The notes beneath the pieces were generated by a model. It was not told the DNA's origin, searched no databases, and worked only from the letters and a program-made list of their open reading frames with translations. The position numbers and the translations under genes were made by a program. From an uncultured Clostridia bacterium (GTDB taxonomy: Bacteria > Bacillota > Clostridia > Christensenellales > UBA1242): a stretch of DNA of 64,000 bases. The stretch is from contig CAJOLU010000001.1 in NCBI GenBank assembly GCA_905235475.1, positions 38,917 to 102,916 on the forward strand. The letters run 5' to 3'. Each line of letters starts with the position of its first letter. The first letter of the stretch is position 1. This document shows, piece after piece, positions 17,578-63,687 of this stretch.

Positions 17578-18024
17578 ATGGAGAGCATAGCTACTAATAA
17601 AAAGGCTTACTATAATTACTTTATTTTGAAGAAATATAGTGCTGGAATTTGCTTGATTGGGAGTGAAGTTAAATCAGTTCGAGCAAAAAATGTAAGTATT
17701 AACGAAAGTTTTGTAACATTTCGTGATGGTGAGGCGTTTTTGCATAATATGTTCATAAAAACATATGACAAAAGCAAACATTTCACTTTGGATGAAAGAA
17801 GAACAAGAAAACTTCTTCTTCACAAAAAAGAAATAAACGAATTATCACAAAAAGTTGCAGAAAAAGGGCTTACAGTTATTCCACTTGCTGTATTTTTTGA
17901 AAATAATTATGCAAAGCTAGAGATTGCGCTTGCAAAAGGAAAACTTTTGCATGATAAAAGAGACACAATAAAAAAACGAGATGTGCAAAAAAGTGTTATG
18001 CGTGAGCTAAAGAATAGCAAATAA
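17578..18024 (+). CDS. smpB: SsrA-binding protein
   Basis: 148 aa; typical SmpB sequence (NKKAYYNY, GSEVKS.R, RTRKLLLHK.EI). Confidence 0.9.
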   Translation: MESIATNKKAYYNYFILKKYSAGICLIGSEVKSVRAKNVSINESFVTFRDGEAFLHNMFIKTYDKSKHFTLDERRTRKLLLHKKEINELSQKVAEKGLTVIPLAVFFENNYAKLEIALAKGKLLHDKRDTIKKRDVQKSVMRELKNSK

Positions 18025-18032
18025 ACCAGCGC

Positions 18033-18432
18033 GGGGGCGTGTTGGTTTCGACAGGTGATGGACTTTACATTATGCATGTCGCAGGCTCGTCTGCGTTGTT
18101 AACGGAAAAATAAAATAAATGCAGAAAATAATGCAAACTCTTACAATTATGCAAATAGCACAAGTGCTTGTGTTGCATATGCGTAATCAATCTTGGTTAG
18201 ATTTAAAATAAACTGGTTTAAACAATGTGTGATTGGTTGCAAGTGTTTAGGCCTCAAAAAAATCAATCTGCCACATAGTAGTGCCCAATGCTGTGTGTAA
18301 GAACCCTTGGGCTGGTTTCAAAAAGTTTGTTATTTTAGATTTTTGCAAATAACTATTGAAAAATAACTAAACATGTAGTATAATGTAGATGAAGTCGTTT
18401 GGACATGGGTTCAAATCCCATCGCTTCCACCA
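18033..18432 (+). ncRNA. ssrA: tmRNA (SsrA)
   Basis: 5' GGGGGCGTGTTGGTTTCGACAGG and 3' GGACATGGGTTCAAATCCCATCGCTTCCACCA form a tRNA-like acceptor and T arm. Tag ORF from the GCA at 18121 to the TAA at 18184-18186. Sits directly after smpB. Confidence 0.9.
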
Positions 18433-19729: not shown

Positions 19730-20713
19730 ATGGGTATAAAGAATTTTTTTAGTAAATTATTTAAAAAGAACCAAAAAGAACCAAAATCCCAATTAAAAAC
19801 TGGAATTGTTTTTAGTGGCGGCGGAGTTAGAGGCCTTGCTTATATTGGAGTTATGAAAGCTTTAAAAGAAGCGGGAATAGAGTTTGATATGGCGGCTGGG
19901 ACATCGATTGGTTCTTTTATTGCTGCAATGTATGCGGCAGATATTCCAATTGAAGAAATGGAACAAAAAGCGCTTACAATCAGGCAAAAAGATTTTCATA
20001 ATTCAAAGTTTTTTATTCTTCCAAGCAAAACCGATGCTTTTGAGCGTATTATTGCAGATACGCTAAAAGGTTATAATTTTGAAAACCTAAAAAAGCCATT
20101 ATGTGTTGTTGCTGTTGATGTGAAAACTGGTAAGGAAGAACACATTAGAGAAGGTGATTTGGTTAAGGCAATAGCGGGTTCTTGTGCTGTTCCTGGATAT
20201 TTTGACCCAGTGGATTTTGGAGAAAAACGTTTGGTTGATGGAGGACTTGTAAACAACATTCCTGCTGATGCATTGAGAGAAATGGGGGCAGATATTGTTG
20301 TTTCTCTAGACATAAATCCAAATAGAGGTTTTGGAACAGATAGCACCAGAATAACCGATCTTTTAAAGGCATCTCTTAGAATTATGATGACATCAAATGC
20401 TGTTAATGGTTATATTCATTCGGACTATATCATAAAAATAGACTTAGATGAATTTAGTCAACTTAAAATAACAAACACACAAGAGTTAATAAATAGAGGT
20501 TATGAAGCAACAAAAAAAGTGTTGCCAAATATCTTTGAGGTTTTAAACAAAGAAGAAGCAGACAGAAACATAAAAAGGGCAAGCAAAAAGTTGGCTGCAA
20601 TAAAAAAACAAAGTGACAAGTTAGACAAAATGACAAAAAGTTTGTCAAGAAAAGAAAAATGGGAGTACGCTCAAATTGGGGAAAAAACAAGAAAAGAAAA
20701 AGAAGATAATTAA
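19730..20713 (+). CDS. Patatin-like phospholipase
   Basis: GGGVRG oxyanion motif, GTSIGS nucleophile elbow, DGG catalytic Asp motif, and a Lys-rich C-terminal tail. Confidence 0.8.
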   Translation: MGIKNFFSKLFKKNQKEPKSQLKTGIVFSGGGVRGLAYIGVMKALKEAGIEFDMAAGTSIGSFIAAMYAADIPIEEMEQKALTIRQKDFHNSKFFILPSKTDAFERIIADTLKGYNFENLKKPLCVVAVDVKTGKEEHIREGDLVKAIAGSCAVPGYFDPVDFGEKRLVDGGLVNNIPADALREMGADIVVSLDINPNRGFGTDSTRITDLLKASLRIMMTSNAVNGYIHSDYIIKIDLDEFSQLKITNTQELINRGYEATKKVLPNIFEVLNKEEADRNIKRASKKLAAIKKQSDKLDKMTKSLSRKEKWEYAQIGEKTRKEKEDN

Positions 20714-21890
20714 ATATAAAGTAATAATATTTTTTATTATTTGCATTGCTGTGTTGGCAACTCTTCCTTTTAGTGCTTTGATTGAAAGCAAAATAAATGC
20801 CAAGCAAACACAAAACATAGGCGACTTTGCAACGCTCATTGAAAAAGATTGCGTTGTTCATGTTATTGATGTTGGGTGTGCTGATTGCATAGCATTAGAA
20901 TTGCCAGATGGCAAAAAGGGACTTGTTGACTTTGGAACCGACACAAACTCAAAGGTCACAAAAAGTTATAGGGAAAATGCGGTAAACTATATTAAGGAAT
21001 ATGTGTTTGATGGTGCAACAACTGGAACTTTGGATTTTGTTGTTATGACCCACCCAGATGCAGACCATTATAACAACTATGAATTAATTTTTGATACTTT
21101 TCAAATAAACAAAGTGTATAGACCACCAGTTTTTTATAGTAAAGATAATGACACTCAAACCCAAAATGAAATTAATAGGGCAAAAGAATTGGGCGTTTTA
21201 GATAGCGACAAAACTTCATTCAATTCAAACGAGTTCTACACAATTAGCACAAACTTATATTCAAAGTGTTTAGACAAAATTTATGCTGAACCAGATTGTG
21301 AGGTTGTTTTAACAATGGGGGCTGCTGATATTGTTTCTTCAGATTCAACAAAACCATACACAATAAGTTTTTATGGACCACGATACACTCGTTATGCATC
21401 GAACAATAACAATAACTCTTTTTCTGCTGTGATGAGCCTTGAATATAAAGGGCATTCCATAATGCTCACGGGAGATGCAACAAAAGAAGAGGAAAAAGAT
21501 TTGTTAGATAATTGCACGCTGCCCGAAGTTGATGTGTTAAAGGTTGCACATCATGGAAGTAACACAAGTTCTTCAGTCAATTTTTTGAATCAAATTAAAC
21601 CAAAATATGCATTAATTAGCACAAGAACAGATACAAATAACTATGGTTTGCCAAAGGATGAAATTTTGCAAAGATTGGTGTCTTGTGGTATTAGTGAAGA
21701 CAAGATTCTACAAACGCAAAAAAGTGGTAATTTGGTTTTTGCTATTGATAGTGAAAATATGTATATTGGTGCAACAACAGAGGTTGTGATTGCCAAAATT
21801 AAATGGTGGTATGTGTGTGCTGGAATTATTGTTTTGAGTGGTTCTATTATATTTGGTATTAATGTAAATTCAAATAAACGCAAAAAATAA
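20676..21890 (+). CDS. ComEC/Rec2-related metallo-beta-lactamase-fold protein, membrane anchored
   Basis: HPDADH and KVAHHGS motifs with N- and C-terminal TM segments. Putative TTG start overlaps the previous gene by 38 nt, so the start is uncertain. Confidence 0.65.
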   Translation: MGKKQEKKKKIIKYKVIIFFIICIAVLATLPFSALIESKINAKQTQNIGDFATLIEKDCVVHVIDVGCADCIALELPDGKKGLVDFGTDTNSKVTKSYRENAVNYIKEYVFDGATTGTLDFVVMTHPDADHYNNYELIFDTFQINKVYRPPVFYSKDNDTQTQNEINRAKELGVLDSDKTSFNSNEFYTISTNLYSKCLDKIYAEPDCEVVLTMGAADIVSSDSTKPYTISFYGPRYTRYASNNNNNSFSAVMSLEYKGHSIMLTGDATKEEEKDLLDNCTLPEVDVLKVAHHGSNTSSSVNFLNQIKPKYALISTRTDTNNYGLPKDEILQRLVSCGISEDKILQTQKSGNLVFAIDSENMYIGATTEVVIAKIKWWYVCAGIIVLSGSIIFGINVNSNKRKK

Positions 21891-24918: not shown

Positions 24919-26451
24919 ATGGCGTTAGAACCACAAATTAAAGAAATTGAGATAAAAACAAACAAAAAACTAGAAAGTGTGAAAACAACAGTTCAAGTGC
25001 AATTAAACACAAATGGAGAAAAAATAGATAAAGTTTTGTTTGCAAAAAGTTTGGCAAATATTGAAAAAGTGGTGGTTAGCCACAACAACATTCAAATTGA
25101 TGGAATTGTTAATTCTTATTCTTTGGTAAGAGTTGATGGAGGAGAAATTGTTGAACTTAGAAAACAAACAAATTTTTCTTGTAATCAAGTTTGCGCAAAT
25201 GTTGAAGATGGTGCAAAGGTTTTAGTTATTCCAAATGTGTTGGGTGCAGAAAACTTAAATGCACAGGAAATAACACTTTCTTTTTCACAAGAAATTTGTT
25301 TAGCTATTTTTGTTTGTGAAAAACAAAAAATTCAATATGTTGAAGAAATCAACCATGCCAATCAAAAAATTGGAACAATTAAATATCAAAACATAAATGG
25401 ATTTTCAACGGAGAATTTTGAAATAACCACTGAAATTGATTTACCATCTTCAATTTCAAAAATTCTCACTTGTGAATGTGAAACAAACATAAAAGATTCT
25501 GTTTGCTCAAAAGATATTTTAACAGTTAACGGAGATGTTCAAACAAACTTAATTTATCTAACAAATGATGATGTGCCAAAAGTAAAAAATCAAACTTATT
25601 CTTCTGAATTTCATCAAGAGATTCTTTTGAATGGAGTTGATGAGCAAGATGTGGCAACTGTTATGTTAAACACAGCAGAAAGCAATTATGATGTTGATGG
25701 CGAAATGAGTGGCAAAGGCGTTTTGGAAATAAAAAACAAAATCAATGCTTGTGTTGTGACAAGAAGGCCTTATGAGATTAAGTGTATGTTTGATGCTTTT
25801 TGTCCACGAAAAGAATTAAATATGGAATATTCAAGTTTTCAAACTGAAAATGTTGTTTTAAACAAAAATTTTAATGATAAAGTTGATGGAAATTTTGTGC
25901 TTGATGGAGATAATCAAATTGATAGAATTATTTTTTGCACAAAAGGAGAAGCCAAAGTGTTGGGCGTTCAAAAATCTCAAGATGACATTGTTGTTAAAGG
26001 GGAGGTTGGAGTTTTTGTTGTTTATGCTTTAGACGATGAACAAAACACTTTGCAATCTGTGAATATTATGGTTCCGTTTGAATGTAAGTGTGGGTGTGAT
26101 GTTGATGTTTGTGCAGACAAAATTTTTGCAAGCGTTAAAATAAAAGACATTGATGCCAGAAACAAAAGGGCAAAAGAGATTGATGTGTTAACAGAACTTA
26201 ATATCTGCGTTATTGCACTAAATAAATGTGATGAGGTTGTTGTTTGTGGCATTAGTGTTGGGGAAGATAGGAAACAAGACTTATGTTCTATGGGAATTTA
26301 TGTTATAGACAAAGCCACAGATTGTTGGGAGGTTGCAAAGAAACTTTTGGTAAATCCAGATGTTTTAATGAGCCAAAACAAAGATTTAACTTTTCCAATT
26401 GAAAAGCCAACTCAAATAATTGTCTATAGACAAAGAGTTATAAATAATTGA
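24919..26451 (+). CDS. SipL/SpoVID-like spore morphogenetic protein candidate (DUF3794-type repeats plus a degenerate C-terminal LysM-like segment)
   Basis: 510 aa with repeated beta-rich modules. The C-terminal YVIDKATDCWEVAKKLLVNPDVLMSQNKDL resembles LysM. Sits in a veg-adjacent, spoIIR-adjacent context. Confidence 0.45.
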   Translation: MALEPQIKEIEIKTNKKLESVKTTVQVQLNTNGEKIDKVLFAKSLANIEKVVVSHNNIQIDGIVNSYSLVRVDGGEIVELRKQTNFSCNQVCANVEDGAKVLVIPNVLGAENLNAQEITLSFSQEICLAIFVCEKQKIQYVEEINHANQKIGTIKYQNINGFSTENFEITTEIDLPSSISKILTCECETNIKDSVCSKDILTVNGDVQTNLIYLTNDDVPKVKNQTYSSEFHQEILLNGVDEQDVATVMLNTAESNYDVDGEMSGKGVLEIKNKINACVVTRRPYEIKCMFDAFCPRKELNMEYSSFQTENVVLNKNFNDKVDGNFVLDGDNQIDRIIFCTKGEAKVLGVQKSQDDIVVKGEVGVFVVYALDDEQNTLQSVNIMVPFECKCGCDVDVCADKIFASVKIKDIDARNKRAKEIDVLTELNICVIALNKCDEVVVCGISVGEDRKQDLCSMGIYVIDKATDCWEVAKKLLVNPDVLMSQNKDLTFPIEKPTQIIVYRQRVINN

Positions 26452-29218: not shown

Positions 29219-29282
29219 TAAAAACGCAATAAAGCAAAGTAAAATTCAATATTTCTTTGCTTTGTGTTTTTGTTATAAAGAG

Positions 29283-29311
29283 TTTACAAAAACAAATTTT
29301 TATGTTAAAAT
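29283..29311 (+). promoter_or_regulatory. Sigma-A type promoter of the Rho-like gene
   Basis: TTTACA, 17 nt, TGtTAAAAT. Confidence 0.45.
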
Positions 29312-29329
29312 AATTCTATGAGGTTATTG

Positions 29330-30622
29330 ATGGACGATAAAAAATTTACAAAAGATACTTTGAATGTTCTTGGCATTTTTCAACTTCGTGATTTGGCTAG
29401 AAGTGTTGGAGTTCATTTGCCAACAACATACAAGAAAGATGATTTAATTGAAAAAATATTGCAAGTGGCAAACGGGGAAACAATGCCGTTTGTTCCTAAA
29501 AACAAAAAAGGGAGGCCACCAAAAAATTTGGTGGATGTGAATAGGGATTTTTCACAATTTGCACAACAAAGTCAAAATAAGACCGCAAAGTTTTCGTGGC
29601 TTTTAGGAGAACTCGTTCCCGTTGCAAATGGGCTTAATTTTGTTGATGAATTAAAAGTTTGTATGCCTGATGCTGTGTTTTATTACAAAGAAGAAAACAA
29701 ACCAAAAGAGGAAATTGGAATTGTGTTTGTTGAGCCTAGTGGGGCAGGGGCGTTTCATATTGGTGGACTGAACAAACTATCTTTAAATGATATTGCATAT
29801 ATTGCATGTGATGTTATTCGCGCCTACAACATTAAAACTGGCGATGAACTTAAATGCAATGTTTATGTTAATTTGGAAAACGAAAAAGTTGTTAATGAAA
29901 TTTTTGAAATTAATGGCAAAAAGTTAAATGAGTTTAAAAGATCTTATGATGCAGAAAGCTCCTTTGATTCAATTAATCCAGTAGAACAAATAATTTTTGA
30001 TGATGCTTCGCTTGATTTTCTAAATAAAGCAGCACCAATAGGAAAAGGTCAAAGAGTTTGTGTGCGTGCTGAAAAAATGCAAATATGTTCACAGTTTTTG
30101 AGCAAGGTGGCAAGTAATGCATGCAAAAAAAATATAAAAACTATTGTTATTGCAATTGATAAAAGACCAGAAGAAAAATCTCTTTATAGTGGAGATGGCA
30201 TTGAATATTTGTTCTGTAACTTTGATGTTATGCCGTTTAGACAAATGTATATGGTTAATCTTGGAATTGAAAGAGCAAAAAGGCTTTGTGAAATGGGTTT
30301 TGATGTTGTGCTTTGTGTTGATAATATGTTGTCTGCTCTTCGTGCATATGATTGTTTTTATGAAAAGAGTGATAACAGTGGTTATAGCATGGAAGCACAA
30401 ATTGCTGTGAAGAAGATTTTTGCAACTGGCGGGAATGTGTTGAATGCTGGAACAATCACATTATTTGCTGGAGTTTGTGAGGGTGATATGGATGCTAACA
30501 AGTTTTTTGATAGTGTTGAAATTTTCTGTAATAGTCACATATATTTATCAAAAGATGAAAATAATGATTTCTCTATCTTGCAAAAAAGTTACACTGAAAA
30601 TGACAAAAAATTGTTAAAATAA
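29330..30622 (+). CDS. Rho-like protein (Rho_N, OB RNA-binding domain, RecA-like domain) with degenerate ATPase motifs
   Basis: Collinear with E. coli Rho: LRDLAR..G.....YKKDDLIEKIL (Rho_N); GIVFVEPSGAGAFHI...DIAYIA...IRAYNIKTGDEL (OB); PIGKGQR, IDKRPEE, RAKRL and VDNMLSALRAYD (RecA-like). Walker A PPKAGKT reads AEKMQIC, and Walker B LLIDE reads IAIDK. The ATG at 29330 follows a GAGG RBS. Confidence 0.7.
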   Translation: MDDKKFTKDTLNVLGIFQLRDLARSVGVHLPTTYKKDDLIEKILQVANGETMPFVPKNKKGRPPKNLVDVNRDFSQFAQQSQNKTAKFSWLLGELVPVANGLNFVDELKVCMPDAVFYYKEENKPKEEIGIVFVEPSGAGAFHIGGLNKLSLNDIAYIACDVIRAYNIKTGDELKCNVYVNLENEKVVNEIFEINGKKLNEFKRSYDAESSFDSINPVEQIIFDDASLDFLNKAAPIGKGQRVCVRAEKMQICSQFLSKVASNACKKNIKTIVIAIDKRPEEKSLYSGDGIEYLFCNFDVMPFRQMYMVNLGIERAKRLCEMGFDVVLCVDNMLSALRAYDCFYEKSDNSGYSMEAQIAVKKIFATGGNVLNAGTITLFAGVCEGDMDANKFFDSVEIFCNSHIYLSKDENNDFSILQKSYTENDKKLLK

Positions 30623-30635
30623 CATTAAAAAATAT

Positions 30636-30666
30636 AAAAACACTTAAATATTTAAGTGTTTTTTTT
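30636..30666. terminator. Bidirectional terminator between the convergent Rho-like gene and the ger operon
   Basis: AAAAACACTTAAA / TTTAAGTGTTTTT palindrome flanked by A- and T-runs. Confidence 0.6.
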
Positions 30667-34548: not shown

Positions 34549-36246
34549 ATGAAAAAACTTTTAAAAACAGATATTGAAAACATTGAAACTGAAAATTTTA
34601 TTGAAGCTGAAGTTAAAAAAGATTTGTTAAATGGCACATATGACCATGTTTTAACTCGTTGTCCACCAGAACCAAGTGGTTATTGGCACATAGGGCACTG
34701 CAAGGCGTGGTTTATAGACTTTGAAACTGCCAAAAAGTTTGGGGGAAAAACAAATCTTAGAATGGATGACACAAATCCAACAAAAGAAGACGGAGATTTT
34801 GCTTCGAACTATGTTGATGAACTTAAGTGGCTTGGATATGTTCCAGAAAAAGTTATTTATTCAAGTGAAGCATATTTTGATATTATGTATGACTTGGCAA
34901 AAAAACTTATTGAAAAAGGGAAGGCTTATGTTTGTCAACTTTCAGCGGAAGAAATGAAAACAATGCGTGGTGACCTTAAAAATGCTGGTAAGGAAAGTCC
35001 ATATAGAAACAGACCAATAGAGGAAAGTTTAAAACTTTTTGAAGATATGAAAAATGGTAGGGTTAAAGATGGAGAAATGACTCTCAGGGCAAAAATTGAT
35101 ATGGCACACCCAAACATGAATATGCGTGACCCAGTTATATATCGTGTTATGCACGAAAATCACTATAAAACAGGGGATAAGTGGTGTATTTATCCAATGT
35201 ATGACTTTGCTCACCCAATTGAAGATGTTTTAGAAGGGGTGACTCATAGCCTTTGCACAATTGAATTTGAAGACCACAGACCACTATATAATTGGTTTGT
35301 TGATAATTGTTTTGAAAACCTTCCATACAAGCCAAGACAAATTGAGTTTGCTGCCCTTAAGTTTGAAAATGTTTTGATTGGAAAGCGTTATATGAAAAAG
35401 CTTGTAAATAGCAAGAAAGTTATGGGGTGGGACGACCCAAGGTTTTACACTATTGCGGGAATGAGAAAAAGAGGCATAACAGCACAAGCAATAAAAAACT
35501 TTATTAACTCAGCAGGAGTTACAAAAGCGGAATCAATCATTCCAATTTCTGCGCTAGATTATTACATTCGCGATGACTTAAACAAAATAGCAACAAGAGT
35601 TATGGCAGTTTTCAATCCTTTAAAAGTTGTTATAACCAACTATGAAGGCTCTGGCGAAGATATTGAAGTTGAAAATAATCCAAACGAAGAAATAAAAACA
35701 TTCCATAAATCAAGATTTGGAAAAGAAATATTTATTGAACAAGAAGATTTTAGTTTAACTCCACCGCCTAAATATAATAGATTAACCCTTGGTGGATATG
35801 TTAGACTTAAAAATGCTTACATAATTAAGTGTAATAATGTTATTTATGATGAAAATGGAAACATTGATCATCTTGAATGCGAATATTTTAAGGATAGCAA
35901 AAGTGGTCAAGACACAAGTGGCATAAAGGTTAAGGGAACCATTCAATTTGTTGAAAATAATAATTTTGTGGAAACCACTGTAAGGCAATTTAAAAACCTT
36001 ACAAAAATGGACATATTAGAGCCAAGTAAAGCACTTGAAAATGGGGCGGAACTTGATGATATAATAGAACCAAATTCAATGACAGAAACAAAAGTTCTGG
36101 TTGAGAAATATGTTTTGTCTTGTGAGGAAGAAACAAGTTTTCAGTTTATTAGAAAAGGTTATTATTATCTTGTGAAGAAAGATGACAAAAATCTAATTTT
36201 TAATGAAACGGTTGGTTTAAAAGATAATTTTAAAGTAGGTAAATAA
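34549..36246 (+). CDS. glnS: Glutaminyl-tRNA synthetase
   Basis: 565 aa, collinear with E. coli GlnRS: PPEPSGYWHIGH, LRMDDTNP, CIYPMYDF.H and GWDDPR. Confidence 0.85.
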   Translation: MKKLLKTDIENIETENFIEAEVKKDLLNGTYDHVLTRCPPEPSGYWHIGHCKAWFIDFETAKKFGGKTNLRMDDTNPTKEDGDFASNYVDELKWLGYVPEKVIYSSEAYFDIMYDLAKKLIEKGKAYVCQLSAEEMKTMRGDLKNAGKESPYRNRPIEESLKLFEDMKNGRVKDGEMTLRAKIDMAHPNMNMRDPVIYRVMHENHYKTGDKWCIYPMYDFAHPIEDVLEGVTHSLCTIEFEDHRPLYNWFVDNCFENLPYKPRQIEFAALKFENVLIGKRYMKKLVNSKKVMGWDDPRFYTIAGMRKRGITAQAIKNFINSAGVTKAESIIPISALDYYIRDDLNKIATRVMAVFNPLKVVITNYEGSGEDIEVENNPNEEIKTFHKSRFGKEIFIEQEDFSLTPPPKYNRLTLGGYVRLKNAYIIKCNNVIYDENGNIDHLECEYFKDSKSGQDTSGIKVKGTIQFVENNNFVETTVRQFKNLTKMDILEPSKALENGAELDDIIEPNSMTETKVLVEKYVLSCEEETSFQFIRKGYYYLVKKDDKNLIFNETVGLKDNFKVGK

Positions 36247-36248
36247 TA

Positions 36249-38057
36249 ATGGAAAAATTAACAAGTAAGAAACTTATGAATATGTGGGCAGAATATTGGA
36301 CGCAAAATGGCCACCAAAAAATTGATGGGGCATCTTTGATTCCAAACGATAACTCTGTTTTATTCACAACTGCAGGAATGCAACCATTAATTCCGTATTT
36401 AATGGGAGAGCCTCATCCAAAAGGGAAGAGAGTTTTTTCAATTCAACCTTGCCTTAGGACCAACGACATTGAAGATGTGGGAGATAATCGTCATCACACA
36501 ATGTTCTTTATGCTCGGAAACTGGAGTATTGGAGATTACTTTAAAGATGATGCAATTAAGTGGAGTTACAACTTTTTAACAAACGAAAAGTGGCTTGCAA
36601 TTCCAAAAGAAAAATTGGCTGTAACGGTTTTTGAGGGCGATGAGCGGGTTCCAAGAGATGAAAAAAGTGCTAATCTATGGAAAGAATGCGGAATTCCTGA
36701 AAATAGAATTTTTTATTTCCCTAAAAAAGACAATTGGTGGGAAATTGGGGGCGGAGTTGGACCTTGTGGCCCAGACACTGAAATCTTTTATGACACAGGC
36801 AAACCAGCGTGTGGCCCAAATTGTGATCCATCTTGTGATTGTGGAAAATGGGTTGAAATTTGGAACAATGTGTTTATGGAATTTGTTGTTGAAAAGGCGG
36901 GAGACCCACTTAAAAAACTTCCACAACAAAATGTGGACACTGGAATGGGAATGGAAAGAGTTGTTTCTGTTTTGAATGGCTTTAAATCAACATATCAAAA
37001 TGATTGTTTTGAAGATGCAATTTCTGTTTTGGAAGAACTTTCTGGCAAAAAATTTGACTTTGAACAACAAGATGGCAAGCCTTTTGCTGTTATTTGTGAC
37101 CACATTAGGGCTTCTGTGTTCCTTTTGGGCGACCAAAAACCAACTGTTCCATCAAATGTTGGGCAAGGCTATATTTTAAGAAGACTGATTCGCCGTGCTG
37201 TTAACTGCACAAGAAGACTTGGAATTAATGCGCAAGACCTTACAAAAGTTGCAGAATGTTTCATTGAGTTCTATAAAGACGAGTTTCCAAACTTTGTTAC
37301 GAAGCGTGATTTTATTTTGAGTGAACTAGAAAAAGAAATTGAAAAGTTTAACAAAGCATTAGATGGTGGGCTTAAAGAGTTTTCTCACATTACAAAAGAT
37401 ATGAAAGAGGGAGACACTATTGATGGTAAAACAGCATTTAGGCTTTTTGACACATTTGGTTTTCCAAAAGAACTCACTGTGGAACTTGCTGGCGAAAAGG
37501 GATTAAAGGTTGATATTTGTGGTTTTGATGCTGCATTTAAGGAACATCAACAGAAATCTAGAGATAACAGTGGAGCAATGTTTAAGGGGGGAGTTGGGCA
37601 AACAAATAGCGAAGAAGAGCAAATTTTGGTTGCAAGACTTCACAGTGCCACACACCTTTTGCACGCGGCTCTTCGCAAAGTTATTGGGCCAACAGCAGAA
37701 CAAAGAGGAAGTAACATCACACCAGAGCGTTTGAGATTCGATTTTGTTTGTGACCACAAAATGACTGATGAAGAAATTAAAAAAGTTGAAGAGATTGTTA
37801 ACGACTCCATCAAGGCAAATGTTCCAATCACTTGTGAAGAAATGAGTGTGGAAGAGGCTAAAAATAGTGGTGCTATTGGAATATTTGAGTCTAAATATGG
37901 CGATAAAGTAAAAGTTTACACAATGGGGCAGTTTAGTAAAGAAATTTGTGGAGGACCTCACGCAAACAGCACCGGGGAGTTGGGAACTTTTAAAATAACA
38001 AAAGAAGAAAGTAGTTCATCTGGAATTAGAAGAATTAAAGCAATTTTGGTTAAATAA
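36249..38057 (+). CDS. alaS: Alanyl-tRNA synthetase, short form (catalytic and tRNA-recognition domains plus an HxxxH/CxxxH editing core; no C-Ala domain)
   Basis: 602 aa; FTTAGMQP, GNWS.GDYFK and VDTGMGMER motifs; HSATHLLH and CGGPH zinc motifs near the C-terminus. Confidence 0.8.
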   Translation: MEKLTSKKLMNMWAEYWTQNGHQKIDGASLIPNDNSVLFTTAGMQPLIPYLMGEPHPKGKRVFSIQPCLRTNDIEDVGDNRHHTMFFMLGNWSIGDYFKDDAIKWSYNFLTNEKWLAIPKEKLAVTVFEGDERVPRDEKSANLWKECGIPENRIFYFPKKDNWWEIGGGVGPCGPDTEIFYDTGKPACGPNCDPSCDCGKWVEIWNNVFMEFVVEKAGDPLKKLPQQNVDTGMGMERVVSVLNGFKSTYQNDCFEDAISVLEELSGKKFDFEQQDGKPFAVICDHIRASVFLLGDQKPTVPSNVGQGYILRRLIRRAVNCTRRLGINAQDLTKVAECFIEFYKDEFPNFVTKRDFILSELEKEIEKFNKALDGGLKEFSHITKDMKEGDTIDGKTAFRLFDTFGFPKELTVELAGEKGLKVDICGFDAAFKEHQQKSRDNSGAMFKGGVGQTNSEEEQILVARLHSATHLLHAALRKVIGPTAEQRGSNITPERLRFDFVCDHKMTDEEIKKVEEIVNDSIKANVPITCEEMSVEEAKNSGAIGIFESKYGDKVKVYTMGQFSKEICGGPHANSTGELGTFKITKEESSSSGIRRIKAILVK

Positions 38058-57511: not shown

Positions 57512-59986
57512 ATGGAAAAAAGTGTATTTAAGAAAAGCCTATTAAATATTTTAGGTCTATGTGCGGTGGCACTATGTTCAATGTTGTTATTTTCAGCGTG
57601 TATTTTCACGCTAGACACCCCAAAAGTAACACTTAAAGGGGGAGTGTTGAGTTGGGAAGAAGTTGCTTCGGCAAGTGGTTATAATTTGTCTATTGAAAAG
57701 GAAGGCGAAGAGGCAAGGATTATTCCAATAAAAGGGACTTCCGTCAATATTTCAGGTTATATTGATGTTGGAAAATATAAAATTAAGGTTCAAGCCACAA
57801 CAAACTCAATTATTAGAAACAATTCTGAATATTCAACAGCAAAAACAATTGTGTCTGATGGAAATATTGGGGCGCCAGATAACTTTAAATTAAACATAAA
57901 ATCTAATCAAGTTGTTGTTAGTTTCCAAAACACTTTGTTTGCAGATAGTTACACAATAAAAATTGTGGACCCAGGAGATGTTGAATTAGACCCAGTTATT
58001 GTTGCAAGTGATGCTTTGGTGGAAACCTATAATATAGACATAACAAAATATTTAAATGATGCTGGAGATTATAAGATTTCTGTTAGAGCAAATAAAGTAA
58101 ATGATGACGAAAGCATTTCAAGTTCAGCATACACAGATGAAAAGACATACACAAAAACAATAGCTCTTTTTGCTCCAAGTGTTGAAAGAGAAATTGATGG
58201 AGATGGGGTCTATGCAGAAACAATAGAAAGTGAAACAATCAGGTATAATGATAATATTCACTATGTTGGCGACAATTTAGTTATAACTCTTAGTGAAGTT
58301 GGAAATGCAAGCAAGTATATTGTTAGTTTGTATGGTTCAGACCAAGTTTTTGAAAGTAACAGCAATGTTGTAACTATTCCTAAATCTAGTTTGCCAAAAA
58401 TCACAACAGGTGAAACTGATAAAACTGCAATACAAATTATTCACGCACAAGTTAAATCAAATAGTTTATATTATAATTCATCTGAATATTCTGACGGATA
58501 CATTTTCTTTGGCGTTGATGTTAACAAAGAGAATTTGGGAGAACTAAAAATTAGTAACCCATATTCAAATTTTGTTGGAGATGAAGAGTTTGACTTTTGT
58601 GTGGATAGCCAAAGCGAACTAAACACATTGGCTTATTTCACAATCGCAAACAGAATTTCAAAAGTGCAATTTTATCAATCTTATTACACTCAAGGAGATT
58701 GGGAGCATCCAACAACTTTGTTTATGTATCAAGACTATATGTCTATTGCCACAGAATCATATTATGAAACTAAAAATGTAAGTTCTTCAACATCAGAAGA
58801 TTCAACTGGAAGGCTTGTGTTATATGTTGACAACAGAGTAACAGGTGCTCCAACAGAAACTGCAACAGTTGGCAAAAATGGTTATAACTTAAACAAAACT
58901 CAAATTGAATTTAATGAAATGTTAAATTATTCTAATTTGCCAGCAGATGACGCAAACCGTTACACAACTAATGAAGATGAAATAACAAACGAAACAAAAC
59001 TTCCGTTGCCAATCTTAAAGCAATTAGATGATAACAAAACAGTCAATGTTTACACAAGTGACCAATTATATTTGGCAGTTCAAGCAGGGTATTACCCAAT
59101 ATTTGTGGGAGAAAGCCAAGCAAAGGAAATTTGGAATAAAGCCATTGATGTTTTGGTTGGAACAGAAAGCACTTTGGGTATTATTGATGGAACAATGACT
59201 GATGTTCAAAAAGCACTAGCAATTTTTGATTGGGTGTGCTATAACAACAACTATGACTATAATTTATCATCTCGTTCTAATGAGGATTTGGTTCAAAGAT
59301 TTAGGGGCTTCTATCTTGAAGGAATCTTCCTAGATGATGGTCAGGCTGTTTGTGATGGAATTGCAAAAGCATACACACTTCTTTGCAATATGGCGGGAGT
59401 TAATTGCTATAAAGTCAGTGGTGAAGGCATAACAGGCAGTGGAACAGAAGGGCATGCTTGGAACAAGGTTGGAATATATAATGAAGAAACAGAACAATAC
59501 AACTATTATATGGTTGATTGCACTTGGAATGATATTTCACTAACACTTCAAGATAACACAGAATTAGGCTACTTCTTAACACATAAAAACTTTTTAACAA
59601 AAGATGATGGCAGACACATAGAGAAAAATCCAACAAAACTAAACTCACAAAGGGTTTTGAATGATGCTTCATATGATTATTTTGCAAATAAAACAATCAC
59701 ACTTAACGACACAACATATAGTATGTTAATTAAAAATAACACATTCACCGGTGATGCTGGAACATATATGGCCAAACTAAAAACAGATCTTAATGCAGAA
59801 TATGCAAAAAATGGTGGAACAGGTCTAAATTATTTGGAAATAAAAATATTAAATGAATTTTCTGGGAACTTTGAATCTGCTCTTGGTGGTGATTGGTATA
59901 TATTTAGTGCTCCAGTTAGTCAAGAAAACAAAAAAACAAATTATGTTACAACAGGCTACACAACATATTTAGTTTTGCATAAATAA
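57512..59986 (+). CDS. Large lipoprotein with Ig/Fn3-like repeats and a C-terminal transglutaminase-like cysteine protease core
   Basis: Signal peptide with a lipobox (MLLFSAC). Transglutaminase-like triad context: QAVCDGIAKAY ... GHAWNKV ... VDCTWND. Confidence 0.65.
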   Translation: MEKSVFKKSLLNILGLCAVALCSMLLFSACIFTLDTPKVTLKGGVLSWEEVASASGYNLSIEKEGEEARIIPIKGTSVNISGYIDVGKYKIKVQATTNSIIRNNSEYSTAKTIVSDGNIGAPDNFKLNIKSNQVVVSFQNTLFADSYTIKIVDPGDVELDPVIVASDALVETYNIDITKYLNDAGDYKISVRANKVNDDESISSSAYTDEKTYTKTIALFAPSVEREIDGDGVYAETIESETIRYNDNIHYVGDNLVITLSEVGNASKYIVSLYGSDQVFESNSNVVTIPKSSLPKITTGETDKTAIQIIHAQVKSNSLYYNSSEYSDGYIFFGVDVNKENLGELKISNPYSNFVGDEEFDFCVDSQSELNTLAYFTIANRISKVQFYQSYYTQGDWEHPTTLFMYQDYMSIATESYYETKNVSSSTSEDSTGRLVLYVDNRVTGAPTETATVGKNGYNLNKTQIEFNEMLNYSNLPADDANRYTTNEDEITNETKLPLPILKQLDDNKTVNVYTSDQLYLAVQAGYYPIFVGESQAKEIWNKAIDVLVGTESTLGIIDGTMTDVQKALAIFDWVCYNNNYDYNLSSRSNEDLVQRFRGFYLEGIFLDDGQAVCDGIAKAYTLLCNMAGVNCYKVSGEGITGSGTEGHAWNKVGIYNEETEQYNYYMVDCTWNDISLTLQDNTELGYFLTHKNFLTKDDGRHIEKNPTKLNSQRVLNDASYDYFANKTITLNDTTYSMLIKNNTFTGDAGTYMAKLKTDLNAEYAKNGGTGLNYLEIKILNEFSGNFESALGGDWYIFSAPVSQENKKTNYVTTGYTTYLVLHK

Positions 59987-60519: not shown

Positions 60520-63435
<2,916 letters not shown>

Positions 63436-63571
63436 AAATAGAGCATAAACAAGTTTATAGGCTCTAGCGTCAAGTTAATGTAATAAAAGTTTAAAAAAGT
63501 ATTGACAGATTTCATTTTGTTTGATATATTTACTATGCAGTTGTGAGTGTGTTTACGCGCACTGTACCATT

Positions 63572-63687
63572 TCTGGTGATTATAGCGAAGAGGTCCACCT
63601 GTTCTCATTCCGAACACAGAAGTTAAGCTCTTCAGCGCCGAAGATACTTGCGGGGCAGCCCGCTGGGAGAATAGGTCGTTGCCAGAT
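63572..63687 (+). rRNA. rrf: 5S ribosomal RNA
   Basis: TCTGGTGATTATAGCGAAGAGGTCCACCTGTTCTCATTCCGAACACAGAAGTTAAGC...GGGAGAATAGGTCGTTGCCAGA. Confidence 0.9.

What the first reader, a model, noticed from the sequence alone, without database searches (positions are those of the whole stretch)
29330..30622. Catalytically dead Rho paralog embedded in the germination gene block
The 430-aa product is collinear with transcription terminator Rho. It has a Rho_N-like helix pair (LRDLARSVG....YKKDDLIEKIL). It has an OB/cold-shock-like RNA-binding segment (GIVFVEPSGAGAFHI ... DIAYIA..VIRAYNIKTGDEL). It has a RecA-like domain with PIGKGQR, IDKRPEE, ERAKRL and VDNMLSALRAYD. The ATPase residues are gone: Walker A PPKAGKT reads AEKMQIC (no GK[TS]), the Walker B/catalytic LLIDE reads IAIDK, and the C-terminal SGTRKEELL region reads SYTENDKKLL. 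An extra ~70-aa insert separates Rho_N from the OB domain. The gene sits between sleB-ypeB and a gerA-type operon and has its own promoter. This suggests an RNA-binding pseudo-helicase recruited to a sporulation or germination role, not a housekeeping terminator. I know of no characterised protein of this type.
Basis: partly seen in the sequence, partly recalled or inferred. Interest (0 to 1): 0.62.

Follow-up and report, generated by a model that had tools for sequence, protein, structure and literature searches.

The report
Enzymatically dead Rho-factor relative
This gene encodes a well-conserved, full-length copy of the bacterial transcription terminator Rho that has lost every residue needed to burn ATP or thread RNA, so it probably works as a passive nucleic-acid-binding protein, not a motor, and no protein of this type has been characterised.

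Summary
The ORF at 29330-30622 (430 aa) is a full-length Rho homolog: Rho equivalog HMM E=2.6e-28, and all 50 top PDB fold hits are Rho. It has no GK[ST] anywhere. The catalytic Glu is Lys, the Arg finger is Glu, and the Q-loop and R-loop are gone.

What is new:
- It belongs to a family found only in Christensenellales-type Clostridia MAGs. The family is under purifying selection (dN/dS 0.086).
- The whole family lacks the catalytic Glu and Arg finger. Basal members keep a P-loop, which was lost about three times.
- Conservation is inverted relative to real Rho. The N-terminal Rho_N + KKGRPPK module is the most conserved part.
- The gene is an insulated unit with terminators on both sides. Its sigma-A-type promoter is conserved in all 11 loci examined. 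No sporulation-sigma promoter is present.
- It always follows veg-sipL-spoIIR-sleB-ypeB. In related lineages it also abuts a type IV secretion locus with a giant anchored protein. The window lacks that locus.

The sporulation or germination role therefore rests on position only. RNA binding is not supported by conservation of Rho's primary-site residues. Whether a canonical rho exists in the same genome could not be tested. Verdict: a real, uncharacterised pseudo-Rho family.

The parts
29222..29272 (+). Intrinsic terminator closing the sleB-ypeB unit (hairpin AAAGCAAAG...CTTTGCTTT followed by GTGTTTTTG)
   Evidence: RNA fold dG -12.3 kcal/mol, z -4.4, 0 of 200 shuffles as good. Coordinates. 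An equivalent hairpin plus T-run precedes the promoter in most related loci.
29283..29311 (+). Conserved sigma-A-type promoter: -35 TTTACA (29283-29288), 17-nt spacer containing the TRTG -16 element (TATG, 29301-29304), -10 TAAAAT (29306-29311)
   Evidence: Consensus scan gives 10/12 matches plus TG. The same GTTTAC[AT]-N14-T[AG]TG[TG]TAnnAT is present in all 11 loci: the window and L002-L011. The sigma assignment is inferred from the consensus and was not tested.
29320..29323 (+). Shine-Dalgarno GAGG, 6 nt before the ATG at 29330
   Evidence: The alternative ATG at 29318 overlaps the SD, and database protein P0001 starts at 29330.
29330..30622 (+). CDS of the Rho-like pseudo-ATPase (430 aa plus stop)
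   Evidence: dN/dS of the family is 0.086 in the L005/L006 pair. AF2 model pLDDT 81.5. Top 50 PDB fold hits are all Rho.
29369..29467 (+). Rho_N-like helix bundle (aa 14-46, LGIFQLRDLARSVGVHLPTTYKKDDLIEKILQV). Part of the most conserved module of the family.
   Evidence: Pfam PF07498, E=1.8e-5, 25.0 bits against GA 24.9. Many invariant columns in A2. The N-terminal module is 63% identical within the family, against 46% for the RecA domain.
29504..29524 (+). Invariant basic AT-hook-like motif KKGRPPK (aa 59-65)
   Evidence: K59 K60 G61 R62 P63 K65 are invariant in 26 sequences. [KR]GRP is also present after Rho_N in the nearest canonical Clostridial Rho. The AT-hook resemblance comes from the sequence only and was not tested by profile.
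29477..29704 (+). ~75-aa insertion between Rho_N and the OB domain (aa 50-125), mostly disordered in the model. It contains the invariant S89-W90...G93 motif.
   Evidence: pLDDT is below 50 for residues 61-84 and 101-113. Invariant columns.
29705..29929 (+). OB-fold domain homologous to the Rho RNA-binding domain (aa ~126-200), with altered primary-site residues (GFGFLR -> GAGAFH; Y110 -> E)
   Evidence: Pfam PF07497, E=1e-3, 19.3 bits, below GA 27. Beta-strands with pLDDT ~90. Residue mapping.
30023..30619 (+). RecA-like (Rho/F1-type) domain without catalytic residues (aa ~232-430)
   Evidence: Pfam PF00006, E=6e-7. Alignments to Rho structures. pLDDT above 90.
30062..30097 (+). Degenerate Walker A position (VRAEKMQICSQF in place of VAPPKAGKTMLL)
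   Evidence: No GK[ST] anywhere in the protein. 17 of 32 family members still have G[EP][KR]GSGK[ST] here.
30152..30175 (+). AIDKRPEE: catalytic Glu E211 replaced by Lys (K278). The Arg valve R212 is kept (R279).
   Evidence: K278, R279, P280 and E281 are invariant in the family. All 32 core members have E211K.
30308..30325 (+). VLCVDN: the Walker B aspartate (E. coli D265) is retained (D331)
30584..30619 (+). KSYTENDKKLLK: the Arg finger R366 is replaced by Glu (E423). The protein ends here, so Rho's last ~50 residues are missing.
   Evidence: Position 366 is D or E in all 32 core members.
30636..30663 (.). Perfect palindrome AAAAACACTTAAATATTTAAGTGTTTTT between the convergent stop codons of the Rho-like gene (30622) and gerAC (30665). 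Likely a bidirectional intrinsic terminator.
   Evidence: RNA folds: dG -20.6, z -4.6 on the + strand; dG -23.2, z -6.0 on the - strand. Coordinates.

Best explanation
The gene encodes a 'pseudo-Rho': a vertically inherited, selectively maintained descendant of the Clostridial Rho factor. It keeps the whole Rho fold (N-terminal helix bundle, basic insertion, OB domain, RecA-like ring domain) but cannot bind or hydrolyse ATP and cannot thread RNA through a central channel.

Shown here:
- The Rho fold.
- Loss of the P-loop, catalytic Glu, Arg finger, Q-loop and R-loop.
- Purifying selection.
- Expression as an insulated monocistronic unit from a conserved sigma-A-type promoter.
- A shift of the strongest conservation from the motor domain to the N-terminal Rho_N + KKGRPPK module.

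Inferred mechanism: the RecA-like domain now serves only as an oligomerisation scaffold. The family-wide pair E211->K and R366->D/E, with R212 and D265 retained, could replace the nucleotide by salt bridges at the subunit interface. The conserved N-terminal HeH/AT-hook-like module, shared with the canonical Rho of related Clostridia, binds nucleic acid or the same partner that Rho's N-terminus contacts. The protein would then act passively, as a decoy, competitor or insulator that modulates Rho-dependent termination or nucleic-acid handling, and not as a terminator.

Any link to spore germination or to the type IV secretion locus found next to it in related lineages is positional and unproven.
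For: Identity and fold:
- Rho HMM E=2.6e-28, but only 99 bits against a cutoff of 315.
- PDB sequence hits are all Rho.
- AF2 model pLDDT 81.5, and the top 50 Foldseek hits are all Rho.

Dead motor:
- No GK[ST] anywhere.
- In all 32 core family members E211 is K and R366 is D or E. The Q and R loops are replaced.
- Walker A is intact in the basal branches and was lost about three times. Nucleotide binding is therefore dispensable for the family's function.

A functional gene:
- dN/dS 0.086, against 0.04-0.11 for the neighbours.
- 26+ cluster representatives without frameshifts.
- 55 invariant columns.

Shift of constraint:
- N-terminal module: 63% identity within the core family, 48-52% to other degenerate families, 40% to nearby canonical Rho.
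- RecA domain: 46% within the family and 26-28% to the others.
- Canonical Rho shows the reverse: RecA 68%, N-terminus 30%.

Own transcription unit:
- Terminators on both sides.
- Promoter conserved in all 11 loci.

Not mobile and not defence-related:
- No viral contigs carry it.
- No PADLOC hit.
- Divergence is concordant with the neighbouring genes.
Against: - No biochemical property was or could be tested: ATP binding, oligomeric state, RNA or DNA binding.
- The residues that make Rho's primary RNA site are not conserved (F64->A/T, R66->H, Y110 variable). Nucleic-acid binding by the OB domain is therefore uncertain and would have to use a different surface.
- The salt-bridge idea comes from residue identities plus prior knowledge of the Rho active site, not from a modelled oligomer.
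- The decoy or antagonist role presupposes a canonical Rho in the same cell, which I could not demonstrate.
- The conserved neighbourhood points to other possible partners (spore cortex-lysis genes, a T4SS).
Confidence: 0.5

Rival explanations
1. Sporulation or germination factor. The pseudo-Rho has been recruited to a spore-specific task, for example handling RNA in the developing or germinating spore, or tuning Rho activity during sporulation. It works together with the SleB-YpeB and GerA germination machinery next to it.
For: - The gene directly follows veg-sipL-spoIIR-sleB-ypeB in every core-family locus examined: the window, L002-L011 and L028.
- It does the same in the very divergent P0121-type lineage, in L029-L032 and L051. 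There RhoL is ~30% and ypeB ~30% identical to the core family, and the outer flanks differ (spo0A instead of tkt).
- Most of the related loci examined (18 of 21) carry spore genes next to the Rho-like gene; the three sister-family loci (L026, L027, L055) show none.
- In B. subtilis, Rho levels control entry into sporulation and affect spore properties, germination and outgrowth (PMC11599450). A Rho-derived modulator would therefore have a plausible target.
Against: - The gene is insulated from sleB-ypeB and gerA by terminators.
- All 11 loci have a sigma-A-type promoter with a TRTG extended -10. No sigma-F/G/E/K-like motif is conserved.
- The block also contains the housekeeping sigma-A gene veg.
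- The sister family (P0118, P0395) is not next to any spore gene.
- The whole region is syntenic by descent, so adjacency is weak evidence.
Confidence: 0.25
2. Accessory of a chromosomal type IV secretion system. The ancestral partner of the pseudo-Rho is the convergent gene pair giant anchored protein + VirD4/TraG coupling protein, with a VirB2-like pilin and VirB4 beyond. The protein either helps to express the 7-9 kb giant gene by protecting it from premature Rho termination, or handles the nucleic-acid substrate of the coupling protein. The window copy is a lineage in which that locus was lost or moved.
For: - The layout Rho-like -> <- giant (2268-2908 aa) <- T4CP is found in the sister family (L026, L027; in L055 the giant ORF and a partial sister-type Rho-like gene lie on the same strand), in core clade A (L008, L009) and in the P0121 type (L029-L032, L051).
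- Stop-to-stop gaps are only 28-93 nt.
- The giant ORFs are full-length homologs.
- The T4CP scores 183 bits to T4SS-DNA_transf. Pilin and VirB4 are identified.
- Identities of RhoL, giant and T4CP scale with the host genes, which indicates long vertical co-inheritance.
- Long horizontally acquired operons, including conjugation genes, are classical Rho targets that need anti-termination by RfaH in enterobacteria (PMC5449661, PMC12360218).
Against: - The window and most core-family loci have gerA or other genes in that position, and there is no T4CP, giant or VirB4 gene in 64 kb. Yet the gene there is under strong purifying selection.
- Three giant + T4CP loci have no Rho-like gene after the giant ORF: L035, L046 and L049.
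- The genes are convergent and not co-transcribed.
Confidence: 0.15
3. Sole, degenerate Rho. The organism has no canonical rho, and this protein is what is left of it. It either terminates transcription by an ATP-independent mechanism or has no role in termination.
For: - No canonical rho lies in the 64-kb window.
- Same-genome presence of canonical rho could not be shown. Five NCBI look-ups gave other assemblies.
- About 30% of Bacillota lack a functional Rho (PMC11347177).
Against: - Canonical Rho with intact GKT, DERPEE and SGTRR is common in Christensenellales and Clostridia MAGs.
- It sits at a different, conserved locus: prs - metallo-beta-lactamase - rho - fba.
- It occurs on contigs whose tetranucleotide signature correlates at 0.93-0.94 with the window.
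- The nearest canonical Rho shares the N-terminal motif, as expected for a duplication within the clade.
- The pseudo-Rho family forms a long-branched monophyletic group nested among those canonical sequences.
Confidence: 0.1
4. Decaying pseudogene or annotation artefact with no function.
For: All catalytic motifs are lost, and the C-terminus is shorter than in relatives.
Against: - dN/dS is 0.086.
- The reading frame is intact in all family members, which span 31-66% identity.
- There are 55 invariant columns.
- The promoter, SD and terminators are conserved.
- The fold is predicted with confidence.
Confidence: 0.01

Closest known systems
Transcription termination factor Rho (TIGR00767 / NF006886; e.g. 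E. coli Rho, Thermotoga Rho 3l0o)
   Same: - Same domain order and fold: Rho_N helix bundle, OB domain, RecA-like domain.
- The PIGxGQR, Arg valve (R212), Walker B Asp (D265), FD, ERAKRL and RAY motifs are kept.
- It has an insertion between Rho_N and the OB domain, like the 'type 2' Rho of related Clostridia.
   Different: - It scores 99 bits against a family cutoff of 315.
- It has no P-loop, catalytic Glu, Arg finger, Q-loop or R-loop.
- The primary-site residues are altered.
- It lacks the C-terminal ~50 residues.
- The conservation gradient is inverted.
- It sits at a different genomic locus from canonical rho in the clade.
Second Rho copies described in surveys ('Group B' / type 4 Rho; NCBIfam NF041509 'Rho, short form')
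   Same: They are additional Rho-family genes that arose by ancient duplication. Hetero-hexamers have been suggested for them (PMC11347177).
   Different: - Those copies lack the N-terminal domain but keep the catalytic residues and the bicyclomycin pocket. [quoted passage not shown]
- This protein is the opposite: the N-terminal domain is hyper-conserved and the catalytic residues are lost.
- Its NF041509 score is 60 bits against a cutoff of 628.
Non-catalytic alpha subunit of F1-ATPase / B subunit of V-ATPase (from established knowledge)
   Same: It is a homologous RecA-like ring subunit that has lost the catalytic carboxylate. Ancestral members of this family still keep a Walker A, so nucleotide binding without hydrolysis is possible for them. 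PF00006 is the Pfam domain that matches.
   Different: - The alpha and B subunits supply an Arg finger to the neighbouring catalytic subunit and alternate with it in an obligate hetero-hexamer.
- Here the Arg finger is also lost.
- No catalytic partner is encoded nearby.
Protein inhibitors of Rho: Psu, Rof/YaeO, Hfq (PMC11718236; PDB 8w8d, 8pex seen)
   Same: The role I propose for it is the same: reducing Rho-dependent termination without enzymatic activity.
   Different: Those inhibitors are unrelated folds that bind Rho from outside. This protein is itself a Rho homolog, and its effect on Rho is only hypothesised.
Rho_N-only 'Rho-like' proteins (plant RHON1; cyanobacterial DUF4912 proteins; PMC13613805)
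   Same: The Rho N-terminal domain is retained as the functionally important module in a protein that is not a Rho motor.
   Different: Those proteins lack the OB and ATPase domains altogether. This one keeps both folds.

Membership tests
Transcription termination factor Rho (equivalog) | Whole-protein score at or above the curated cutoff of the Rho equivalog models | tested here: not met
   NF006886: 99 bits against a cutoff of 315. TIGR00767: 87.8 bits against 509.
Transcription termination factor Rho (equivalog) | Overall three-domain Rho fold | tested here: met
   AF2 model pLDDT 81.5. The top 50 Foldseek PDB hits are all Rho, best E=3.5e-22, TM ~0.64.
Transcription termination factor Rho (equivalog) | Walker A P-loop GxxxxGK[ST] (E. 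coli K181/K184/T185) | tested here: not met
   The site reads RAEKMQICS, and there is no GK[ST] anywhere in the protein.
Transcription termination factor Rho (equivalog) | Catalytic Glu E211 | tested here: not met
   It is Lys (K278), invariant in the family.
Transcription termination factor Rho (equivalog) | Arg finger R366 | tested here: not met
   It is Glu (E423), and D or E in all 32 core members.
Transcription termination factor Rho (equivalog) | Arg valve R212 and Walker B Asp D265 | tested here: met
   R279 is invariant and D331 is nearly invariant.
Transcription termination factor Rho (equivalog) | Secondary RNA-binding site (Q-loop and R-loop, K326) | tested here: not met
   The Q-loop PASGKVLTGG is replaced by FYEKSDNS-GY. 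The R-loop TGSKMD/EEFKGTGNME is replaced by EGDMD/..FCNSHI.
Transcription termination factor Rho (equivalog) | Primary RNA-binding site residues in the OB domain (F62/F64/R66, Y80, Y110) | tested here: not met
   GFGFLR reads GAGAFH (F64->A, R66->H). Y80 is kept in the window but variable in the family. Y110 is E. Pfam Rho_RNA_bind scores 19.3 bits, below GA 27.
Transcription termination factor Rho (equivalog) | Rho_N N-terminal helix bundle | tested here: met
   PF07498 scores 25.0 bits against GA 24.9, which is borderline. Helices 16-26 and 36-47 appear in the model.
Transcription termination factor Rho (equivalog) | Homo-hexameric ring; ATP-dependent 5'->3' RNA translocation | not testable with these tools
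   This needs purified protein or a multimer model with coordinates.
Rho paralog, short form (NF041509) | Score at or above cutoff; no N-terminal domain; catalytic residues intact | tested here: not met
   It scores 59.8 bits against a cutoff of 628. The N-terminal domain is present and the catalytic residues are absent.
Pseudoenzyme (catalytically dead homolog kept by selection) | Loss of catalytic residues together with evidence of purifying selection | tested here: met
   Motif losses are shown. dN/dS is 0.086 in a P-loop-less lineage.
Paralog of Rho (co-resident with a canonical rho) | A canonical rho in the same genome | tested here: inconclusive
   None lies in the window. Canonical Rho is present in related MAGs at another locus with matching composition. 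No assembly was shown to hold both.
Sporulation-sigma-controlled gene | Conserved sigma-F/G/E/K-type promoter | tested here: not met
   All 11 loci share a sigma-A-type TTTACA-17-TRTGnTAnnAT promoter instead. This is a consensus-based inference, not an expression test.
Anti-phage defence or mobile element cargo | Match to known defence families, or presence on viral or mobile contigs | tested here: not met
   PADLOC gave 0 hits. No viral contig encodes a relative. Divergence is concordant with the host genes.

The most novel reading that the evidence does not exclude
A vertically inherited family of motor-less Rho rings acts as a natural, genetically encoded antagonist or decoy of the canonical Rho factor. 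It uses the shared N-terminal module to occupy Rho's loading sites or partners, and so relieves termination at specific targets: spore-development genes and/or a giant type IV secretion gene. This would be the first anti-termination factor derived from the terminator itself. It would be one example of a much wider, unrecognised radiation of catalytically compromised Rho relatives in Clostridia.
Probability: 0.15. Interest if true: 0.85.

Novelty: new variant of a known kind. Interest (0 to 1): 0.62.

Why it matters
Rho is one of the best-studied ring motors and a global regulator. The published surveys I could read describe extra Rho copies only with intact catalytic residues.

A conserved, selected, full-length Rho that has given up ATP hydrolysis and RNA threading shows that the Rho scaffold has a second, non-motor use. 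The conservation pattern places that use in the N-terminal domain.

If it modulates the resident Rho, it would be a new class of termination regulator in spore-forming gut and rumen Clostridia. In B. subtilis, Rho levels are already known to gate sporulation and germination.

The exhaustive search also suggests that dozens of other degenerate Rho-like lineages exist. Current annotation would file these as 'Rho' or 'hypothetical', and they would mislead genome-based inference of Rho-dependent termination.

Tried and rejected
1. A shifted but intact P-loop or catalytic Glu. Rejected: there is no GK[ST] or GxxxxGK anywhere, and the alignment to E. coli and Thermotoga Rho is unambiguous around PIGKGQR and DKRPEE.

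2. Pseudogene. Rejected by dN/dS and family conservation.

3. Defence-system or phage protein. Rejected: PADLOC gave no hits and no viral contig carries it.

4. Sporulation-sigma promoter. I searched the upstream regions of 11 loci for sigma-F/G/E/K-like -10 motifs. None is conserved, and a sigma-A-type promoter is.

5. Proving a canonical rho in the same genome. I looked up seven canonical Rho proteins from related MAGs and metagenomes. All lie at the locus Lactamase_B_3 - rho, preceded by prs in most loci and followed by fba in some. None of the five NCBI assemblies matched the ten assemblies carrying the Rho-like gene. Tetranucleotide similarity shows only that canonical-Rho organisms are compositionally very close.

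6. A mobile conjugative element that targets the 3' side of the gene. Not supported: the giant/T4CP identities track the host genes, and one locus lies beside a ribosomal-protein operon. It is not fully excluded.

7. AlphaFold database search for named relatives. The library was unavailable.

8. A tandem-fusion model to test the K278...E423 interface idea. Not attempted, because the tool returns no coordinates or contacts, so the result could not be read.

9. My first Walker A regex mislabelled canonical 'SPPKAGKT' as degenerate. This was corrected.

10. The tip labels in the tree are wrong, because sequences were overwritten. The topology was combined with the states.
Full report
**1. The observation**

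A GAGG Shine-Dalgarno lies 6 nt upstream. The identical database protein P0001 is 430 aa.

Profile searches show a significant but distant relationship to Rho:
- NCBIfam Rho equivalog PRK09376: E=2.6e-28, but only 99 bits against a curated cutoff of 315.
- TIGR00767: 88 bits against 509.
- The 'short-form Rho paralog' model: 60 bits against 628.
- Pfam: Rho_N (25.0 bits, GA 24.9), Rho_RNA_bind (19.3 bits, below GA) and ATP-synt_ab.

All PDB sequence matches are Rho, with Thermotoga 3l0o best at E=4.9e-21. An AlphaFold2 model built on 26 family sequences has mean pLDDT 81.5 and pTM 0.74. The OB and RecA-like regions are around 90. Its 50 best Foldseek matches in the PDB are all Rho chains (E down to 3.5e-22, TM ~0.64).

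**2. The catalytic residues**

I aligned the protein with E. coli Rho and mapped the functional residues. The residue roles come from established knowledge of the Rho structure.

| Feature (E. coli Rho) | State in the window protein |
|---|---|
| Walker A APPKAGKT | RAEKMQIC; no GK[ST] or GxxxxGK anywhere |
| Catalytic Glu E211 | Lys (K278, in AIDKRPEE) |
| Arg finger R366 | Glu (E423, in SYTEND) |
| Q-loop and R-loop (secondary RNA site) | replaced by unrelated sequence |
| OB domain GFGFLR | GAGAFH (F64->A, R66->H) |
| Y110 | Glu |
| C-terminal ~50 residues | absent |
| Arg valve R212 | retained |
| Walker B Asp D265 | retained |
| PIGxGQR and most core structural motifs | retained |

**3. 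It is a family, and the family tells the story**

The 5.8-billion-protein search found 26 cluster representatives of 425-474 aa at 31-100% identity. All come from Clostridia MAGs or metagenomes and are named 'hypothetical' or 'Rho_N domain-containing'. A sharp drop to canonical Rho follows.

In species-representative genomes the family occurs in just ten assemblies, labelled 'Clostridia bacterium' or 'Christensenella sp.', from rumen and gut.

Every one of 32 core members has E211->K and R366->D/E, with R212 and D265 kept. However, 17 of them still have a perfect Walker A, G[EP][KR]GSGK[ST]. On a neighbour-joining tree rooted with canonical Rho, the basal branches and one whole clade are Walker-A-positive. 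The losses fall in three separate places: the window's clade, P0013, and P0014/15 (with states). The tree has no support values. The family therefore lost hydrolysis first, and has since been shedding nucleotide binding repeatedly. ATP binding is not what selection is maintaining.

Selection is nevertheless strong. In the closest DNA pair (L005/L006, a lineage without a P-loop), dN/dS is 0.086. This is within the range of tkt, sipL, sleB, ypeB and gerAC in the same pair (0.04-0.11).

**4. What is being conserved**

Per-domain identities are inverted relative to real Rho.

| Comparison | N-terminal module | RecA-like domain |
|---|---|---|
| Within the core family | 63% | 46% |
| Core vs other degenerate Rho-like families | 48-52% | 26-28% |
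| Core vs nearest canonical Clostridial Rho | 40% | 28% |
| Canonical Rho, near vs far | 30% | 68% |

The conserved module is GIFQLRxxARxVGVHLPTTYKKxxLIEKILQVxxGxxxPFVPKNKKGRPPK. It consists of the Rho_N helix pair followed by an invariant basic GRP motif that resembles an AT-hook. The AT-hook resemblance comes from the sequence only.

The same [KR]GRP element follows Rho_N in the nearest canonical Rho proteins (P0027, P0028, P0133, P0134 and P0139). The module is therefore inherited from the parental Clostridial Rho.

I infer that the function now resides in this N-terminal nucleic-acid- or partner-binding module, and that the RecA-like domain is retained as a scaffold.

One testable idea concerns the active-site pocket. 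In Rho, E211 of one subunit and R366 of the next subunit both face the ATP gamma-phosphate. The family-wide change to Lys and Asp/Glu, with R212 and D265 retained, could replace the nucleotide by salt bridges and fix the interface. This is inference only.

**5. Transcription unit**

- Upstream, a hairpin plus T-run closes the sleB-ypeB unit (29222-29272; dG -12.3 kcal/mol, z -4.4).
- Then comes TTTACA (29283-29288), 17 nt containing TATG (29301-29304), and TAAAAT (29306-29311).
- The same GTTTAC[AT]-N14-T[AG]TG[TG]TAnnAT is present upstream of the gene in all 11 loci, although the intergenic length varies from 108 to 490 nt.
- This matches the Gram-positive sigma-A consensus with the TRTG -16 element. 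No sigma-F/G/E/K-type -10 is conserved.
- Downstream, a perfect 28-nt palindrome flanked by A and T runs (30636-30663) lies between the convergent stops of this gene and gerAC. It folds strongly on both strands (z -4.6 and -6.0).

The gene is therefore an insulated monocistronic unit with a housekeeping-type promoter. The sigma assignment is by consensus, not by experiment.

**6. Genomic context**

In all ten related genomic loci the order tkt-veg-sipL-spoIIR-sleB-ypeB-RhoL is kept. The downstream side varies: gerA, two inserted genes and then gerA, or a giant ORF. A basal core member (L028) also follows ypeB.

Looking further out changed the picture.
- A sister family (P0117, P0118, P0392-P0402) has a near-identical N-terminus, a 'DEQPE' core, no P-loop, and D265->E.
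- It is not beside any spore gene. It lies convergent with a ~2,800-aa ORF followed by a VirD4/TraG-type coupling protein.
- This is the same layout as downstream of the core-family gene in L008 and L009.
- The giant ORFs are full-length homologs (27-50% identity). They have an N-terminal signal/TM segment and a C-terminal TM anchor, and no Pfam match.
- A still more distant degenerate relative (P0121) keeps E211 and R366 but has lost Walker A and Walker B. Its locus has both neighbours at once: spo0A...veg-sipL-spoIIR-sleB-ypeB-RhoL -> <- giant <- T4CP.

A metagenome scan centred on the T4CP gave 80 loci.
- The closest T4CPs sit in a compact module: VirB4-like ATPase, a ~780-aa membrane protein, a VirB2-like pilin, then divergently the T4CP and the giant protein.
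- Where the contig continues beyond the giant ORF, the next genes are a reversed RhoL and ypeB in L030, L031, L032 and L051. L030 is on a 737-kb contig.
- L055 has a partial sister-type RhoL after the giant ORF on the same strand, and its contig ends before any ypeB could be seen.
- L035, L046 and L049 have other genes in that position.

Identities of sleB, ypeB, RhoL, giant and T4CP scale together across locus pairs, which argues for long vertical co-inheritance, not a roaming element.

The window has no T4CP, giant or VirB4 gene. A canonical-Rho query hits only the Rho-like gene.

The likely ancestral layout is ...sleB-ypeB-RhoL -> <- giant <- T4CP. The window's lineage has gerA in place of the secretion genes.

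**7. Paralog or sole copy?**

Canonical Rho (GKT, DERPEE, SGTR[KR]) is abundant in Clostridia and Christensenellales MAGs. It occupies a different conserved locus, Lactamase_B_3 - rho, preceded by prs in most loci and followed by fba in some. Contigs carrying it can have tetranucleotide signatures that correlate at 0.93-0.94 with the window, as high as among RhoL loci.

Co-residence is likely (I estimate ~75%) but not shown.

**8. Comparison with what is known**

The 2024 survey of 2,730 genomes found second rho genes in 116 genomes, mainly Actinomycetota and the PVC group. Those copies typically lack the N-terminal domain but keep the catalytic residues (PMC11347177). That is the opposite of the present case.

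A 2025 review of Rho regulation lists no Rho-derived inhibitor (PMC12360218). The 'Rho-like' proteins in the literature I could search (RHON1, DUF4912) have only the Rho_N domain (PMC13613805). No Pfam, NCBIfam or PADLOC family covers this protein.

In B. subtilis, Rho must decline for sporulation to start, and it influences spore properties, germination and outgrowth (PMC11599450). A Rho-derived modulator next to germination genes is therefore conceptually attractive. The present data give only positional support.

**9. A wider phenomenon**

The exhaustive profile search returned 5,077 hits. I aligned 186 sequences: the best 150 hits plus those already in hand. Of these, 68 are canonical Rho, 32 are core family, and 86 are other Rho-like proteins that lack at least one of GK[ST], E211 or R366. 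They include recurrent types such as 'PKAGKT + DQSPE' (~500 aa) and 'GPHGSGKT + DARPEE'. The profile is biased towards such sequences and the alignment was automatic, so the counts are rough. Even so, catalytically compromised Rho relatives are clearly numerous and unannotated.

**10. Verdict**

It extends to a whole family, with a clear order of events: hydrolysis lost first, then the P-loop repeatedly.
- 'RNA-binding', 'paralog' and 'sporulation/germination role' remain hypotheses. The last is weakened by the sigma-A-type promoter, the insulating terminators and the sister family's different context. It is partly strengthened by deep conservation of the position after ypeB.
- I rate this a new variant of a known kind, with interest 0.62.

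Noticed in passing
L008 11357-19753(-), L009 11403-19994(-), L026 10211-18712(-), L027 4347-12728(-), L029 11451-18725(-), L030 12131-19447(+): A family of giant proteins (2,268-2,908 aa) with an N-terminal signal/TM segment, a C-terminal TM anchor plus basic tail, and no Pfam match at all. It is always encoded directly after a VirD4/TraG-type coupling protein and is often convergent with the Rho-like gene (stop-to-stop gaps 28-93 nt).
   Followed up: partly
L030 310-11890; L035 6666-11869; L046 6598-11869: A compact chromosomal type IV secretion module: VirB4-like ATPase (888 aa), ~750-816-aa proteins with no Pfam match, a VirB2-like pilin (114-122 aa, PF18895), and the T4CP transcribed divergently. 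No relaxase or integrase was seen within reach. In L035 it lies beside the S10 ribosomal-protein operon. Its divergence tracks the host genes, so it looks vertically inherited and not like a recent ICE.
   Followed up: partly
Proteins P0117-P0259 (classified): A large unannotated radiation of Rho-like proteins with broken catalytic sets. 86 of 186 aligned sequences lack at least one of GK[ST], E211 or R366. Recurrent types include 'PKAGKT + DQSPE[TA]' (~500 aa, more than 20 representatives) and 'GPHGSGKT + DARPEE'. Lys at the catalytic-Glu position recurs in several unrelated-looking lineages.
   Followed up: partly
L026 8760-10175, L027 2941-4305 (proteins P0395, P0118): A sister family of the window protein has an almost identical N-terminal module but a different pattern of decay: DEQPE (Glu kept, Arg valve -> Gln), no P-loop, and Walker B Asp -> Glu. 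It is not adjacent to spore genes. The P0121 type shows yet another mosaic: E211 and R366 kept, Walker A and B lost.
   Followed up: partly
window 60520-63687: A 23S rRNA (60520-63437) and a 5S rRNA (63572-63687) have no 16S gene upstream. An 840-aa ORF ends at 59986. The rRNA genes therefore appear unlinked, at least at this copy.
   Followed up: no
window 34549-38057: GlnRS (565 aa) is immediately followed, with a 2-nt gap, by a 602-aa AlaRS-like protein. This protein has the catalytic and second-additional (SAD) domains but is much shorter than a standard ~870-aa AlaRS. The pair is conserved in most related loci (80% identity for the AlaRS-like gene in L004).
   Followed up: no
window 17578-18432: smpB (17578-18024) is directly followed by the tmRNA gene (18033-18432), whose tag peptide is AENNANSYNYANSTSACVAYA.
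   Followed up: no
L005 8824-10487; L006 11470-13133: In two related genomes, two extra genes (160 aa and 394 aa) are inserted between the Rho-like gene and the gerA operon. The 394-aa protein is weakly similar to window ORF 20676-21890. This shows that the downstream junction is a site of rearrangement while the upstream ypeB junction is fixed.
   Followed up: no
window 24919-26451: A 510-aa protein with a SipL/SPOCS domain (PF12673, 54 bits) sits between veg and spoIIR. The block veg-sipL-spoIIR-sleB-ypeB is conserved even in the most divergent lineage examined (L029), where spo0A lies just upstream.
   Followed up: partly
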